A program made the position numbers and the translations under genes. From a virus (lineage: Duplodnaviria; Caudoviricetes): a stretch of DNA of 64,000 nucleotides. The stretch covers positions 64,001 to 128,000 of the IMG/VR virus record IMGVR_UViG_3300021255_000109. One strand, written 5' to 3'. The notes beneath the pieces were generated by a model that had not been told where the DNA came from, made no database searches, and saw only the letters and a program-made list of their open reading frames with translations. This document shows positions 1 through 16,425 of this stretch, piece after piece. The first letter of the stretch is position 1; each line of letters opens with the position of its first letter.

Positions 1-470
1 ATGGCAAACTTCCTTATTAGCATTTCCTTGGTTTGTGCCAGGCGGCCAGCCTAACACCTAACAAGGATTATTCTCCCACTGGGAGCGTCTATTGCGGAAG
101 CGACAAGACACCGTCCTAACTTGAGAAATATATTTTGCGCTAACTACCCCCGACACCTTACGTTCGTAAGGTATCATTCTCTTGTCACCAAGAGAATGAT
201 TCATCTTCATCCTGGCTATCGTCAGGGTAGATATAGTCGACACCTAAGTGTGGTAGTTACCTCAGCACAATGGTATTTGCTCTGCACTGAGTTACACATT
301 TTTTCAAAGTTCAATAGGAATCAGTCAAAATCAGCATCGCCACGAGAAGGCTTCCTATATGATGCCATGCGGTTTTGAGGTTAACCGTAAACCTTGATAG
401 TGTGGCTCTCGCCCAAAGGAATACCCGGCCGCCGCACTCCACTCTTTGAATGATGAACTCTTCTAATCCT
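1..470 (-). ncRNA. large structured ncRNA candidate (possibly GOLLD/ROOL-like), may extend past window start
   Basis: No credible ORF. Successive hairpins, e.g. ATCATTCTCTTG-GTGA-CAAGAGAATGAT (GNRA loop on minus strand) and CCTTAC/GTAAGG. Lies downstream of tRNA-Gln. Confidence 0.5.
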
Positions 471-611: not shown

Positions 612-734
612 CAAGGCTGCTTACTTTTTGGAGTTATTAATCTTCCAATTGATTTACAATTGCTAAGCAAAAGACAGGACTCGAACCTGCAACGCATAAC
701 TTGGAATAAAGCTACTATTTGCTGTCACAGCCTT
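612..734 (-). ncRNA. skipping-rope-like element enclosing a circularly permuted tRNA (Gly TCC / Trp CCA ambiguous)
   Basis: AAGGCTG-TGA-CAGCAAAT ... CAGCCTTG; inside, T-arm and 3' acceptor precede 5' acceptor and D-arm. Confidence 0.7.
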
Positions 735-765: not shown

Positions 766-887
766 CAAGACACTTTAGAAAAATGATTATCAGTCATTCG
801 CGTCAACCATTGCGCCAATTTGCCTAAGGTGGCAAATATCGGATTTGAACCGATACTCTCTAAAAAGAGATTTGCTGTATGTGTCTT
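766..887 (-). ncRNA. skipping-rope-like element enclosing a circularly permuted tRNA-Ile(GAT)
   Basis: AAGACAC-ATA-CAGCAAAT ... GTGTCTTG; inside ATCGG-TTCAAAT-CCGAT, ATTTGCC-ACCTTA-GGCAAAT, D-arm, AATGA-CT GAT AA-TCATT. Confidence 0.8.
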
Positions 888-1434: not shown

Positions 1435-1438
1435 TAAG

Positions 1439-1995
1439 TAGGAGAGATGGGAATCGAACCCATGACCTCAGGTTTGATTCCAAGATGTTATTCATTAATT
1501 ATTTTATTCACCACCTTTTCTAATTCATATTCAGTAGCAAATGTAATTCCTCTAATTTGTCCATTCTTAGGCGGAATAAATCTTAATCTTTTTATCCCAG
1601 AACTACAACATTCATCTACTGGAATTAAATAAGTTTTACCTTCATAAGAAGTCATAAAATAATCAATTTGTTCTTTTGTATAGGCATGTTTTACAAACTT
1701 TCCATTTCTCGTAGTTTTATTTGCGGTATTAAATTCTATATATCCGTTGTCTATATGTGAAGTATTAGCTGTTTTAACTTGAATTTTATAAAATTTATTA
1801 TTTATTTCAACTACGAAATCATAACGTTCACAATCTCCATATGGAGTTAAAACATTATAACCTAATTTTAAAAATGATAACATACATTCTACTTCTGTAA
1901 TATTACCTTTTTGTTTTGACATTAACATATTGTTAATAATCAATGAATAATTCTTTGAATCAGACCTGCACTCTAACCTTCTGAGCTACTCTCCT
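1439..1995 (-). tRNA. trnI: split tRNA, most likely Ile(GAT); exons about 1959-1995 and 1439-1475
   Basis: 5' half AGGAGAG..CAGGT-CTGAT and 3' half AA-ACCTG..TTCGATT..CTCTCCT-A flank a ~483-nt insert. Confidence 0.75.
1488..1943 (-). CDS. PD-(D/E)XK endonuclease inside the tRNA insert (group I intron-associated PD-(D/E)XK-like family)
   Basis: Motifs KGNITE...YDFVV...KIQVKT...IDYF; true start may be an ATG at about 1928 or 1922. Confidence 0.8.
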   Translation of the reverse strand: MIINNMLMSKQKGNITEVECMLSFLKLGYNVLTPYGDCERYDFVVEINNKFYKIQVKTANTSHIDNGYIEFNTANKTTRNGKFVKHAYTKEQIDYFMTSYEGKTYLIPVDECCSSGIKRLRFIPPKNGQIRGITFATEYELEKVVNKIINE

Positions 1996-2006
1996 ATATT
2001 TATATC

Positions 2007-2087
2007 CAAGGCACTTAAAGTGAGCACATTTGTATAAGTAAAAGTTATATAATTTGCATCCTTGTAAATATTTGCTGTATGTGCCTT
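2007..2087 (-). ncRNA. skipping-rope-like element (no tRNA cargo)
   Basis: AAGGCAC-ATA-CAGCAAAT...GTGCCTTG directly downstream of promoter at 2105-2142. Confidence 0.7.
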
Positions 2088-2265: not shown

Positions 2266-2272
2266 ATTTTAG

Positions 2273-2391
2273 TGGGGGACAGAGGACTCGAACCTCCAAA
2301 CACCGGCTCCCTAAGCTTTGTAAAAATTGCTGACACGGTTTTTATTCAAGACCAGACATAACGGCGGCTTTTCCTATTTGCCTAATCCCCC
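2273..2391 (-). tRNA. Leu-like tRNA whose anticodon arm is interrupted by an inside-out skipping-rope element
   Basis: GGGGGAT/GTCCCCC acceptor, GGC/GCC D-arm, GGAGG-TTCGAGT-CCTCT T-arm; insert GGTCTTGA-ATAA-AAACC-GTGT-CAGCAATT then ..CT TAG GG.. Confidence 0.65.
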
Positions 2392-6148: not shown

Positions 6149-6242
6149 TAAAAAATATTGTAGGTTACAACAACCTGTCAAAGTACCTTAAAGGCTTCAT
6201 AACAAAATAGTACAATTTCTACAGTGAGTAACCTACAATATT

Positions 6243-6295
6243 AACCCCTCTGCGTTTACACTGGCTTGGGAACAGTCCATTGGGCCGCATTAGTT
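6243..6295 (-). ncRNA. twister ribozyme (type P1)
   Basis: Minus strand AACTAATGCGGCCCAATGGACTGTTCCCAAGCCAGTGTAAACGCAGAGGGGTT: U^AA site, P2 TGCG/CGCA, P4 ACTG/CAGT with loop TTCCCAAGC, 3' GAGGG pseudoknot partner. Confidence 0.8.
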
Positions 6296-6504
6296 TTTAA
6301 TTTTAAGTAAGGAGTAAAAAGAAGATTTATTGTCCCCGTATTATTTGACAATAAATAGAGATAAAAAACTCTCCTTAACATACAGTTTTGTTGTTTCTAA
6401 ATCTGGCACTATATAGAAAGGATGGCACCTTACAGCCTAACCGCCAATTATTTTTGATTAGGTTTTCCAGTAGTAAGGCTTAATGTATAGTGTCAATTTA
6501 AAAA

Positions 6505-6627
6505 CAAGTCGCTTCGTTTTTTGGTGTACAAAATGGGACTCGAACCCACAATTTTTAAATCCTAAATTTAACGCCATTCCTATTTGGCTATTCGTACGAT
6601 TAACGTAACATTTGCTGTATGCGACTT
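6505..6627 (-). ncRNA. skipping-rope-like element enclosing an intact tRNA
   Basis: AAGTCGC-ATA-CAGCAAAT ... GCGACTTG. Confidence 0.75.
6522..6597 (-). tRNA. trnL: tRNA-Leu(TAG), short variable loop, encoded CCA
   Basis: GTACGAA/TTTGTAC-ACCA; TTAAA-TT TAG GA-TTTAA. Confidence 0.75.
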
Positions 6628-6925: not shown

Positions 6926-6991
6926 CAAGACGAATTATAACAAGTTTTGTTTACCGACACAAATTGTTTTAAAAATTGCAGAAATCGTCTT
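6926..6991 (-). ncRNA. skipping-rope-like element
   Basis: AAGACGA-TTT-CTGCAATT...TCGTCTTG; first element after promoter 6995-7037. Confidence 0.65.
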
Positions 6992-7753: not shown

Positions 7754-7819
7754 CAAGACATTTTAGTTTTTCCCAAATTGGATGGCTGAGATAACAAACT
7801 TGTTTGCTGCAAATGTCTT
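7754..7819 (-). ncRNA. skipping-rope-like element
   Basis: AAGACATTT-G-CAGCAAAC...AAATGTCTTG; first element after promoter 7825-7866. Confidence 0.65.
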
Positions 7820-8310: not shown

Positions 8311-8365
8311 AAATTGACCTACCCTGGTACGCATTGTTAAGAGGCGTGATAGGTACTGATATAAT

Positions 8366-8512
8366 CTAGACACGTAGTTCCTTTTTTTAACGCTATTGCG
8401 CACATCTTTTCAAATTAGAACTATTAAACGTCGATGCTATTTTACAGGGACACGTCCCTATATTCTTCTATCCTAATCTTGAGTTAAAATAGAATTGCTG
8501 TGCCCGTGTCTA
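8366..8512 (-). ncRNA. skipping-rope-like element with long loop
   Basis: TAGACACG-GGCA-CAGCAATT...CGTGTCTAG. Confidence 0.6.
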
Positions 8513-15314: not shown

Positions 15315-15402
15315 CAAGACGCCGACCTGATTTGTTTCTTTTATTCAGGATTTAATTAATTAATTAATTTTGGCGAAACTAGTAATTGCCGTACAGCGTC
15401 TC
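15315..15402 (-). ncRNA. skipping-rope-like element (variant CGGCAATT)
   Basis: GAGACGC-TGTA-CGGCAATT...GCGTCTTG; first element after promoter 15405-15451. Confidence 0.55.
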
Positions 15403-16295: not shown

Positions 16296-16321
16296 AATTA
16301 TACTCCTTTATTTTAATTCAA

Positions 16322-16412
16322 TACGCGCTCTGGGACTCGAACCCAGCTTAACAACCTTGCTAGGGCCTACTGCTTATAAGGCAGGGGCTCTCACCGAATG
16401 AGCTAAGCGCGC
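16322..16412 (-). tRNA. tRNA with TAT (Ile) anticodon and long variable region
   Basis: CCTGC-CT TAT AA-GCAGT, ~22-nt extra arm, CTGGG-TTCGAGT-CCCAG. Confidence 0.75.
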
Positions 16413-16425
16413 ATATAAATGGGGC

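What the first reader, a model, noticed from the sequence alone, without database searches (positions are those of the whole stretch)
766..887. Complete circularly permuted tRNA-Ile(GAT) opened at the variable loop
Minus-strand order: T-arm ATCGG-TTCAAAT-CCGAT, 3' acceptor ATTTGCC, linker ACCTTA, 5' acceptor GGCAAAT, D-arm, anticodon arm AATGA-CTGATAA-TCATT. The new ends TTTAGAGA/TTTCTAAA can pair as an 8-bp helix at the variable-arm position that leads into the CAGCAA module. Acceptor, T and anticodon stems are perfect, which suggests selection. Permuted tRNA genes are known from some algae and archaea; I do not know of a phage example with this architecture.
Basis: seen in the sequence. Interest (0 to 1): 0.88.

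Follow-up and report, generated by a model that had tools for sequence, protein, structure and literature searches.

The report
Back-to-front tRNA on Ro60-like handle
A large phage encodes a complete tRNA look-alike written in back-to-front order and closed at its amino-acid end; it is conserved in related phages and is most likely a partner RNA of a phage protein shaped like the RNA-surveillance protein Ro60, not a working tRNA gene.

Summary
On the minus strand, 887-766 reads T arm, 3' acceptor strand, 6-nt loop, 5' acceptor strand, D arm, then a full anticodon arm (CUGAUAA). Re-ordered, ARAGORN calls it tRNA-Ile(GAT). Twelve orthologs from independent assemblies keep the same permuted cloverleaf (96.5% of cells paired, 23 of 31 pairs with compensatory changes), so it is neither chance nor an assembly error.

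The conserved pairing at the variable-arm position is a local hairpin, not the proposed 8-bp helix. The element is one of about nine RNAs in this tRNA array that share a "handle": a covarying 7-8 bp closing helix, ACAGCAA(A/U) and a 3' G. This handle co-occurs with a DUF2828/vWA protein whose model has the Ro60 fold (Z 19.7), and it often lies just upstream of that gene.

On one conserved body the anticodon changes freely (GAT, GAA, TAA, TAT, TCT, AGA, GTA). Eight of eight relatives also carry an ordinary tRNA with the same anticodon.

Best reading: a Y-RNA-like tRNA mimic tethered to a Ro60-like protein. Binding, processing and function are inferred.

This scan has already met the same handle/DUF2828 system in at least 130 other genomes. 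I found no paper or Rfam family for it.

The parts
881..887 (-). Handle helix P1, 5' strand (AAGACAC)
   Evidence: Pairs with 767-773. In 12 orthologs the 8 P1 pairs are 99% paired and 5 show compensatory change. The same helix covaries in 68 modules from viral contigs.
870..880 (-). Handle motif AUACAGCAAAU (one-sided bulge; CAGCAA invariant)
   Evidence: Exact 11-mer at 870-880, 2070-2080 and 6610-6620. C11-A16 are invariant in alignment A2. The motif is strand-biased and clustered beside DUF2828 genes in other phages.
857..870 (-). P2: local hairpin UCUCU-UUUU-AGAGA at the variable-arm position
   Evidence: It is in the RNAalifold consensus, and all 4 counted pairs show compensatory change. 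Hairpin energy beats shuffles in every ortholog (p <= 0.014).
838..854 (-). T arm ATCGG-TTCAAAT-CCGAT
   Evidence: 100% of cells paired in orthologs, 3 of 5 pairs compensatory.
831..837 (-). Acceptor stem, 3' strand ATTTGCC
   Evidence: A 7-bp stem with 818-824. All 7 pairs show compensatory change in orthologs.
825..830 (-). Loop ACCUUA closing the acceptor stem, where a tRNA would have its free ends
   Evidence: In orthologs the loop is 3-9 nt, its sequence is not conserved, and its first base is a purine in the 12 full orthologs.
818..824 (-). Acceptor stem, 5' strand GGCAAAT
800..817 (-). U8-G9 and the D arm (GCG-C AAUGGUUGA-CGC)
   Evidence: ARAGORN drawing. The string TGGCGSAATGGTTKACGC is shared by the orthologs and was used to find them.
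782..798 (-). Complete anticodon arm AAUGA-CUGAUAA-UCAUU (anticodon GAU)
   Evidence: The stem covaries. The loop is always 7 nt with C32, U33 and A38, but the anticodon differs among orthologs.
774..781 (-). 3' tail UUUCUAAA, U/C-rich then A-rich; a possible alternative partner of the P2 3' arm
   Evidence: The duplex with 857-864 is -5.4 kcal/mol (p 0.012 in this copy) but is not in the consensus and is weak in most orthologs.
766..773 (-). Handle helix P1, 3' strand GUGUCUU, plus the conserved 3' G
   Evidence: A G follows P1 in 68 of 78 candidate modules.
612..734 (-). Sister handle RNA with YrlA-like cargo (T arm, closed acceptor, D arm, no anticodon arm)
   Evidence: Same handle. It is the only element with an Rfam YrlA hit, at 26.4 bits, below the gathering score of 69.
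2007..2087 (-). Sister handle RNA whose cargo is a lone anticodon-stem-loop-like hairpin (UAUAA-CUUUUAC-UUAUA)
6505..6627 (-). Sister handle wrapped around an ordinary tRNA-Leu(UAG)
6926..6991 (-). Sister handle RNA with a relaxed motif (CUGCAAU) and a short cargo
7754..7819 (-). Sister handle RNA (GCAGCAAAC) with a short cargo
8366..8512 (-). Sister handle RNA (UAGACAC ... ACAGCAAUU) with a long non-tRNA cargo
15315..15402 (-). Probable sister handle RNA with a divergent motif (ACGGCAAUU)
   Evidence: This is the weakest member.

Best explanation
The 122-nt element is a Y-RNA-like small RNA. It has a conserved handle: the closing helix P1, the one-sided bulge AUACAGCAAAU, and a 3' G. The handle carries a complete, acceptor-closed, circularly permuted tRNA look-alike as cargo. 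The handle is most likely the binding site for the phage's own Ro60-shaped DUF2828/vWA protein. That gene lies on the same strand at the downstream end of the tRNA array, at genome 57,021-58,577, about 6.2 kb from this element. Because the handle is attached at the variable-loop position and the acceptor stem is closed by a loop, RNase P or RNase Z cannot release the tRNA-shaped body. The body, including a canonical anticodon loop, would therefore stay tethered to the protein. I think it is displayed there either as a bait or decoy for a factor that reads tRNA anticodon arms, such as host anticodon nucleases, or as a tether for such a factor, such as modification or repair enzymes. This would parallel the way Y RNAs tether Ro60 to PNPase. 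Which anticodon is displayed is swappable. Shown here: the sequence, the fold by covariation, the family, the Ro60 fold of the protein, and genomic co-occurrence and adjacency. Inferred: that the protein binds the handle, that the RNA is made and stable, and what the display is for.
For: (1) The permuted cloverleaf is real and conserved.
(2) The same handle closes about 9 RNAs in this array and 68 or more modules in viral contigs. P1 covaries strongly, and the cargo is made of tRNA parts: full permuted tRNAs, YrlA-like bodies, lone anticodon stem-loops, or ordinary tRNAs.
(3) P0001 is DUF2828+DUF7788 with an invariant MIDAS motif. Its AF2 model has pLDDT 93. Against the PDB its top 13 Foldseek hits are all full-length Ro60/TROVE. 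VIA-align gives Z 19.7 to Xenopus Ro60 and 14.8 to phage phiLo Ro60, while vWA-only rows reach at most 10.2.
(4) DUF2828 is present in 33 of 44 module-bearing records, and in 15 of 15 complete ones, against 3 of 47 controls. Those 3 controls turned out to carry modules, which gives 36/47 against 0/44, Fisher p 6e-16.
(5) In 9 of 15 complete genomes, handle motifs lie within 2 kb of the DUF2828 gene on the same strand, mostly directly upstream (also L229).
(6) G098 has the same permuted body but a handle without CAGCAA, and it has no DUF2828.
(7) The anticodon varies on one body. L242 (TAT) and L243 (TCT) are about 95% identical, and the window (GAT) differs from L227 (GAA). In 8 of 8 relatives an ordinary tRNA with the same anticodon and an identical 7-nt loop is present.
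(8) Precedent: YrlA tRNA mimics bound by Ro60 (PMC4201824), and phage Ro60 with Y-like RNAs encoded upstream of its gene that have a stem plus a bulge motif (PMC12135203).
(9) In relatives, the neighbours of the DUF2828 gene are RNA-repair-type genes: Thg1, RlaP, Metallophos, RNase_T and an RNA-ligase-like gene.
Against: Co-occurrence is partly confounded by the relatedness of the phages. In 4 of 15 complete genomes the nearest motif is more than 17 kb from the gene. Pfam TROVE does not match the protein, and the handle lacks the Ro60 motif GNCGAAN0-1G. G098 keeps the permuted body without the protein, so the cargo may have a function of its own. The exact 7-bp acceptor stem, the purine at the discriminator position and the canonical anticodon loop are more tRNA-like than a mere scaffold needs. 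In this phage the ordinary tRNA-Ile(GAT) gene is interrupted.
Confidence: 0.68

Rival explanations
1. It is a working permuted tRNA-Ile(GAU) gene. RNase P would cut 5' of G1 in the ACCUUA loop, the 3' side would be trimmed, and CCA would be added. The result would be a two-piece tRNA, or a ligated one, with the handle as an oversized variable arm. It would be charged by IleRS and would decode AUU/AUC.
For: It has a full cloverleaf, an exact 7-bp acceptor stem, A at the discriminator position followed by CC, U8, A14, G18-G19, a T loop, and C32-U33...A37-A38. The first loop base is a purine in all 12 full orthologs. M. smegmatis YrlA, which has a 7-bp acceptor stem, is cut by RNase P and receives CCA in vivo (PMC4201824). 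In this phage the only ordinary tRNA-Ile(GAT) gene is split by a 483-nt insert.
Against: The anticodon changes on the same body among close orthologs: Ile, Phe, Leu, Arg, Tyr and others. Eight of eight relatives already have an ordinary tRNA with the same anticodon. The closing loop can be as short as 3 nt, and no CCA is encoded. No CCA-adding enzyme, RtcB or Thg1 was found in this genome. A 58-kDa protein on the handle would hinder entry into the ribosome. There is no bulge-helix-bulge for circularisation.
Confidence: 0.12
2. The handle is a leader-trailer processing or quality-control signal for the phage's tRNA precursors, recognised by a nuclease or chaperone. The permuted copies would then be by-products of duplication and deletion between tandem handle-tRNA units, with no role of their own.
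For: The same handle wraps ordinary, releasable tRNAs: tRNA-Leu(UAG) here, and Phe, Lys, Gly and Val elsewhere. Modules occur in tight tandem arrays spaced by GAUA. Tandem duplication is the accepted origin of permuted tRNA genes (my knowledge).
Against: The permuted bodies are conserved with compensatory changes in every stem across 12 orthologs, so they are selected in their own right. Most cargos are not releasable tRNAs. The permuted body also survives with a different handle in G098.
Confidence: 0.1
3. It is a chance resemblance, a decaying tRNA pseudogene, or an assembly rearrangement.
For: The window sequence comes from a single metagenome assembly, and AT-rich sequence forms many weak helices.
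Against: The same order is found in 12 or more independent assemblies, with covariation far above shuffled and slid controls and an MFE z-score of -3.99.
Confidence: 0.02

Closest known systems
YrlA-type Y RNAs with Ro60/Rsr in bacteria and mycobacteriophages (Rfam RF02553; Chen et al. 2014, PMC4201824)
   Same: It is a tRNA mimic written in the order T arm, closed acceptor hairpin, D arm. Its 5' and 3' ends pair in a protein-binding stem with a conserved bulge motif. It is encoded near the gene for a Ro60-fold protein. A 7-bp acceptor version of YrlA is known to be cut by RNase P.
   Different: This element keeps a complete anticodon arm and is opened at the variable loop, not at the anticodon loop. 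The handle motif is ACAGCAA(A/U), not GNCGAAN0-1G. The partner protein is DUF2828/DUF7788 and is not matched by Pfam TROVE. The element does not score with the Rfam model.
Thermus phage phiLo Ro60 with Yrl1/Yrl2 (PMC12135203; PDB 9KOP, 9L5Y)
   Same: It is a phage-encoded Ro60-fold protein with Y-like RNAs encoded upstream of its gene, built as stem, bulge with a short motif, then stem. It is the best Foldseek match of P0001.
   Different: The phiLo protein is a TROVE-family Ro60 whose RNAs carry a CGAA motif. Its RNAs are not described as carrying full tRNA cloverleaves or swappable anticodons.
Circularly permuted tRNA genes of Cyanidioschyzon merolae and other algae, and of Thermofilum pendens (my knowledge; reviewed in PMC4090602)
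   Same: The 3' half lies upstream of the 5' half in one transcription unit, and the re-ordered sequence is a good tRNA.
   Different: Those genes mature through a bulge-helix-bulge cut, circularisation, and RNase P/Z, and each is the cell's working isoacceptor. Here there is no BHB, the break is at the variable loop with a protein-type handle, the anticodon is not fixed, and ordinary copies coexist.
Two-piece tmRNA from permuted ssrA genes (alpha-proteobacteria, cyanobacteria; my knowledge)
   Same: It is a bacterial precedent for a permuted tRNA-like gene whose product stays in two base-paired pieces.
   Different: tmRNA has a tag reading frame and no anticodon arm. This phage has a separate standard tmRNA.

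Membership tests
Circularly permuted tRNA genes (algal/archaeal type) | The 3' half (T arm, 3' acceptor strand) is encoded upstream of the 5' half (5' acceptor strand, D arm, anticodon arm) | tested here: met
   Order read directly from the sequence.
Circularly permuted tRNA genes (algal/archaeal type) | The re-ordered sequence scores as a tRNA | tested here: met
   ARAGORN calls tRNA-Ile(gat) in 5 of 5 re-orderings. An Infernal score of the re-ordered sequence could not be computed with these tools.
Circularly permuted tRNA genes (algal/archaeal type) | Precursor ends form a bulge-helix-bulge motif for the splicing endonuclease, giving a circular intermediate | tested here: not met
   The ends form a continuous 7-8 bp helix with a one-sided 11-nt bulge and no 3-4-3 BHB. 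Circular RNA could not be tested.
Circularly permuted tRNA genes (algal/archaeal type) | It serves as a fixed isoacceptor, so the anticodon is conserved among orthologs | tested here: not met
   GAT, GAA, TAA, TAT, TCT, AGA and GTA all occur on one homologous body. Ordinary tRNAs with the same anticodon coexist in 8 of 8 relatives.
Circularly permuted tRNA genes (algal/archaeal type) | The acceptor linker is removed by RNase P and a 3' nuclease, then CCA is added and the RNA is charged | not testable with these tools
   This needs RNA ends or in-vitro assays.
YrlA Y RNA (RF02553) | T arm, closed acceptor hairpin, D arm in that order, with the ends paired in a stem | tested here: met
   (model consensus).
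YrlA Y RNA (RF02553) | The anticodon arm is replaced by the stem that leads to the Ro60 site | tested here: not met
   A complete 5-bp/7-nt anticodon arm is present and covaries.
YrlA Y RNA (RF02553) | The Ro60-binding motif GNCGAAN0-1G is in the 5' strand | tested here: not met
   The motif here is AUACAGCAAAU; the YrlA motif is as given in PMC4201824.
YrlA Y RNA (RF02553) | Scores at or above the Rfam gathering threshold (69 bits) | tested here: not met
   No YrlA hit on 766-887 even at E <= 10. The neighbouring element 614-714 scores 26.4 bits.
Handle-tagged RNAs of DUF2828 phages (undescribed; defined here and in earlier notes of this scan) | A covarying 7-8 bp closing helix with conserved A2, G3 and C5, and a G after the 3' strand | tested here: met
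Handle-tagged RNAs of DUF2828 phages (undescribed; defined here and in earlier notes of this scan) | The ACAGCAA(A/U) motif lies about 2 nt after the 5' strand of the helix | tested here: met
Handle-tagged RNAs of DUF2828 phages (undescribed; defined here and in earlier notes of this scan) | A DUF2828/DUF7788 gene is in the same genome, usually on the same strand and nearby | tested here: met
   The gene is at genome 57,021-58,577 on the same strand at the end of the array. Family-wide co-occurrence and adjacency are shown.
Handle-tagged RNAs of DUF2828 phages (undescribed; defined here and in earlier notes of this scan) | The protein binds the handle | not testable with these tools
   No RNA-protein complex tool is available. 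EMSA or CLIP is needed.
Ro60/TROVE proteins (for the partner protein P0001) | A HEAT-repeat ring plus a vWA domain with a MIDAS motif | tested here: met
   AF2 pLDDT 93.2. Z 19.7, rmsd 4.0 A and 427 aligned residues to Xenopus Ro60. D318, S320, S322, T387 and D419 are invariant.
Ro60/TROVE proteins (for the partner protein P0001) | Matches the Pfam TROVE model (PF05731) | tested here: not met
   No match in the genome. The profile against PDB sequences hits TROVE only at E 1.9, over the MIDAS region.

The most novel reading that the evidence does not exclude
Phages use a Ro60-like protein to hold a set of tRNA-shaped RNAs whose displayed anticodon loop is programmable, as shown by single-base switches between near-identical copies. 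In this reading the RNAs act as tethered decoys or sensors against host nucleases that cut specific tRNA anticodon loops. The complete permuted tRNA is the fullest form of that display. After an RNase P nick it could even be CCA-tailed and charged, becoming a protein-tethered two-piece tRNA.
Probability: 0.2. Interest if true: 0.9.

Novelty: new variant of a known kind. Interest (0 to 1): 0.74.

Why it matters
Permuted tRNA genes have been described only in some algae and one archaeon. The known bacterial and phage tRNA mimics of Y RNAs lack an anticodon arm. Here a full four-arm tRNA is written in permuted order, is closed at the acceptor end, and is attached to a conserved handle that travels with a Ro60-shaped protein of a family (DUF2828) with no assigned function.

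If the pairing holds, it defines a second, widespread branch of Ro60/Y-RNA particles in phages. It also assigns a role to DUF2828, a family that Pfam also lists from eukaryotes. It further suggests that phages display chosen anticodon loops on a protein platform. That idea bears directly on the arms race around tRNA-cleaving defence systems and on why large phages carry such odd tRNA arrays.

The hypothesis is easy to test: EMSA or CLIP, RNase P cleavage, and RNA end mapping.

Tried and rejected
- blastn against the phage collection, using the element plus flanks and a 6-kb coding stretch, found nothing. The tool warns that records of the window's own genome, or of one very near it, may be left out.
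- Rfam at a permissive E-value gives no family for the handle or for this element.
- Infernal (27.2 bits, 666-823) and ARAGORN with introns (665-824, a 77-nt "intron") join the 5' half of this element to the T arm of the next module. I reject this as an artefact of two adjacent tRNA-like modules. That acceptor pairing is poorer (5 Watson-Crick pairs, 1 GU, 1 mismatch, against 7 of 7), and in orthologs the next gene is an ordinary tRNA.
- The idea that this element fills the phage's missing tRNA-Ile(GAT) is weakened. An ordinary tRNA-Ile(GAT) gene exists but is split by an insert, and all 8 relatives have both forms.
- Pfam TROVE, RtcB, Thg1 and the CCA-adding enzyme were not found in this genome. 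Only sub-threshold RNA-ligase-like hits were found.
- The single-sequence AF2 model of P0001 failed (pLDDT 38) and was replaced by the alignment-based model.
- A sequence profile of the DUF2828 family against PDB sequences did not reach Ro60 significantly. Only the fold comparison did.

Full report
**What is in the sequence.** Five in-silico re-orderings, with the 5' acceptor strand first, were all called tRNA-Ile(gat) by ARAGORN. The native, unpermuted sequence folds by itself into closing helix, small hairpin, T arm, acceptor hairpin, D arm and anticodon arm. Its MFE is -34.4 kcal/mol, z -3.99, and 0 of 200 shuffles fold as well.

**Conservation.** A search of viral contigs with the D-arm string gave 12 distinct orthologs with the same permuted order from independent assemblies. 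RNAalifold recovers all six helices. On that structure:
- 96.5% of cells are paired.
- 23 of 31 pairs carry compensatory changes, including all seven acceptor pairs.
- The covariation score is 0.676, against 0.226 for shuffles (0 of 500 reach it) and at most 0.165 for slid partners.

This excludes chance, a pseudogene and an assembly rearrangement.

The consensus does not contain TTTAGAGA/TTTCTAAA. The 3' arm AGAGA pairs locally with UCUCU to give a hairpin at the variable-arm position, and its pairs covary. Per-sequence shuffles give a summed hairpin energy of -49.1 against -3.1+-2.2. The long-range duplex sums to -48.9 against -28.8+-5.3 and is individually non-significant in most orthologs; in the window copy p = 0.012. 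It may be an alternative conformer, but it is not the conserved structure.

**The handle family.** The outer helix and the ACAGCAAAU bulge recur in the window at 734-612, 2087-2007 and 6627-6505 with the exact motif, and at 6991-6926, 7819-7754, 8512-8366 and 15402-15315 with a relaxed motif. One more copy lies at genome 60,961-60,855. In viral contigs I collected 68 modules of the form [7-bp covarying helix][NN]ACAGCAAAU[cargo][A-rich][helix']G. The cargo is made of tRNA parts:
- complete permuted tRNAs opened after the anticodon arm;
- permuted tRNAs opened at position 26, with the anticodon arm in front of the T arm;
- YrlA-like bodies without an anticodon arm;
- ordinary tRNAs;
- lone 5-bp/7-nt anticodon-type hairpins, mostly CUUUUAA.

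No Rfam family matches the handle. Only the neighbouring module, 714-614, has a weak YrlA hit (26.4 bits, gathering score 69).

**The protein partner.** At the downstream end of the array, on the same strand, the genome encodes P0001 (518 aa, genome 57,021-58,577). It is DUF2828 plus DUF7788 with an invariant MIDAS motif.
- Fold: Pfam TROVE is not matched. However, an AF2 model built on 118 homologs (pLDDT 93.2, pTM 0.93) has full-length Ro60 structures as its 13 best Foldseek hits. VIA-align gives Z 19.7 (rmsd 4.0 A, 427 residues) to Xenopus Ro60, 14.8 to Thermus phage phiLo Ro60 and 13.3 to Deinococcus Rsr. vWA-only chains reach at most 10.2.
- Co-occurrence: DUF2828 is present in 33 of 44 module-bearing viral records, and in 15 of 15 that are at least 90% complete, against 3 of 47 control records. 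Those three controls proved to carry modules with a G-U pair in P1. That gives 36/47 against 0/44, p 6e-16.
- Adjacency: in 9 of 15 complete genomes, handle motifs lie within 2 kb on the same strand, mostly directly upstream of the gene. In two genomes they are 3.8-5.7 kb away, and in four more than 17 kb away. In L229-L231 a module ends 62 nt before the start codon.
- A natural control: G098, a complete genome, has the same permuted body but a handle without CAGCAA, and it has neither DUF2828 nor TROVE. Four genomes with the CAGCAA handle have DUF2828.
- Neighbourhood: in relatives, the neighbours of the gene are of RNA-repair type, namely Thg1, RlaP, Metallophos, RNase_T and an RNA-ligase-like gene.

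Caveat: these phages are related, so co-occurrence is partly phylogenetic. Adjacency, strand bias and the G098 case reduce that confounding but do not remove it.

**tRNA or mimic?**

For a working tRNA:
- The cloverleaf is complete.
- The acceptor stem is exactly 7 bp.
- A purine sits at the discriminator position in all 12 full orthologs.
- The loops are canonical.
- M. smegmatis YrlA, which has a 7-bp acceptor stem, is cut by RNase P and receives CCA in vivo (PMC4201824).
- ARAGORN finds no ordinary tRNA-Ile(GAT) among the phage's 33 tRNAs.

Against a working tRNA:
- The anticodon differs on one homologous body: GAT in the window, L073 and L232; GAA in L227, L236, L247 and L249; TAA in L234; TAT in L242; TCT in L243, which is about 95% identical to L242; AGA in L244; and GTA in L042.
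- In 8 of 8 relatives examined, an ordinary tRNA with the same anticodon and an identical 7-nt loop is also present.
- The window does hold an ordinary tRNA-Ile(GAT) gene at 1438-1995. It is interrupted after the anticodon by a 483-nt insert that encodes a PD-(D/E)XK endonuclease.
- The closing loop can be as short as 3 nt, and no CCA is encoded.
- The genome has no CCA-adding enzyme, RtcB or Thg1.

I therefore rank decoding as the minority reading (0.12).

**Mechanism proposed.** The handle is the analogue of the Ro60-binding stem of Y RNAs, a 5'-3' stem plus a bulge with a short motif. The motif is CGAA in known Y RNAs (PMC12135203) and CAGCAA here. The permuted topology attaches a tRNA-shaped body to the handle through its variable region and closes its acceptor end, so tRNA-processing enzymes cannot set it free. 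The body and its anticodon loop are thereby displayed on the protein. Rapid anticodon switching between near-identical copies, the frequent lone Lys(UUU)-type anticodon hairpins, and the RNA-repair neighbourhood fit a role in the conflict over tRNA cleavage, as decoy, sensor or tether. That last step is inference.

**Relation to what is known, and novelty.** The closest relatives in design are YrlA/Ro60 (PMC4201824) and phage phiLo Ro60 with Yrl RNAs (PMC12135203). Iyer et al. note TROVE proteins in a few jumbo phages (PMC7824862). No paper in the library links DUF2828 to Ro60 or Y RNAs, or describes permuted tRNAs in phages. Earlier notes of this scan report the same handle/DUF2828 system in at least 130 other genomes, with follow-up agents reaching the same reading. 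I re-tested the fold, co-occurrence and adjacency claims here.

What this finding adds:
- the complete four-arm permuted form;
- its covariation;
- the swappable anticodon;
- its redundancy with ordinary tRNAs;
- the local variable-arm hairpin;
- the handle-less variant in a DUF2828-less phage.

I class it as a new variant of a known kind, a Ro60/Y-RNA tRNA mimic, and not as a member of the algal/archaeal permuted tRNA genes.

Noticed in passing
window 1438-1995 (-); ORF 1488-1943 (-): An ordinary-order tRNA-Ile(GAT) gene (acceptor AGGAGAG/CTCTCCT) is interrupted right after the anticodon by a 483-nt insert. The insert encodes a PD-(D/E)XK endonuclease (PDDEXK_5, E 5.6e-29). It leaves only about 60 nt of non-coding sequence and is not matched by Rfam group I, so how or whether it is spliced is open.
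   Followed up: partly
window 2272-2391 (-): A normally ordered tRNA-like gene (acceptor GGGGGAT/GTCCCCC, good D and T arms) has an anticodon region that holds GGUCUUG ... CAGCAAU. ARAGORN calls it only when an intron is allowed.
   Followed up: partly
window 6242-6296 (-): There is a type-P1 twister ribozyme-like match inside the tRNA array, at 47.7 bits and E 4.6e-8, below the gathering score of 67.2.
   Followed up: no
window 1-315 (-), 8317-8353 (-), 52743-52985 (+): Three other RNA matches: the 5' part of a ROOL RNA running off the window start (149 bits), an abiF-motif RNA (39.1 bits), and a complete group I intron (106.5 bits).
   Followed up: no
window 16321-16413 (-): tRNA-Ile(UAU) is 93 nt long with a long extra arm. 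That is unusual for an Ile tRNA.
   Followed up: no
genome 61,228-61,316 and 62,709-63,008 (just before the window): A tRNA with anticodon CUA (ARAGORN labels it 'Pyl') and a tmRNA (tag ARYQYQMAA) lie in the same array. I did not test the recoding.
   Followed up: no
L251:3981-4112 (-) in G098; L259:533-681 (-): The same permuted tRNA body (acceptor ATTTGCC and anticodon stem AATGA/TCATT, as in the window) has anticodon GTG or TGA and a closing helix ATGATAC/GTATCAT. The bulge is ACAAAAU/ACAAAAC instead of ACAGCAA, and there is no P2 hairpin. G098 is complete and has no DUF2828 or TROVE gene.
   Followed up: partly
L191 and L190 (viral contigs): Five and three handle modules respectively stand head to tail, separated only by GAUA/GAAA. 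This suggests one transcript cut into units.
   Followed up: no
L229:12690-18040: In a relative, the DUF2828 gene is followed by Thg1, RlaP (weak), Metallophos, RNase_T and a 489-aa RNA-ligase-like gene, which together look like an RNA-repair cluster. Thg1 is absent from the window's own genome.
   Followed up: partly
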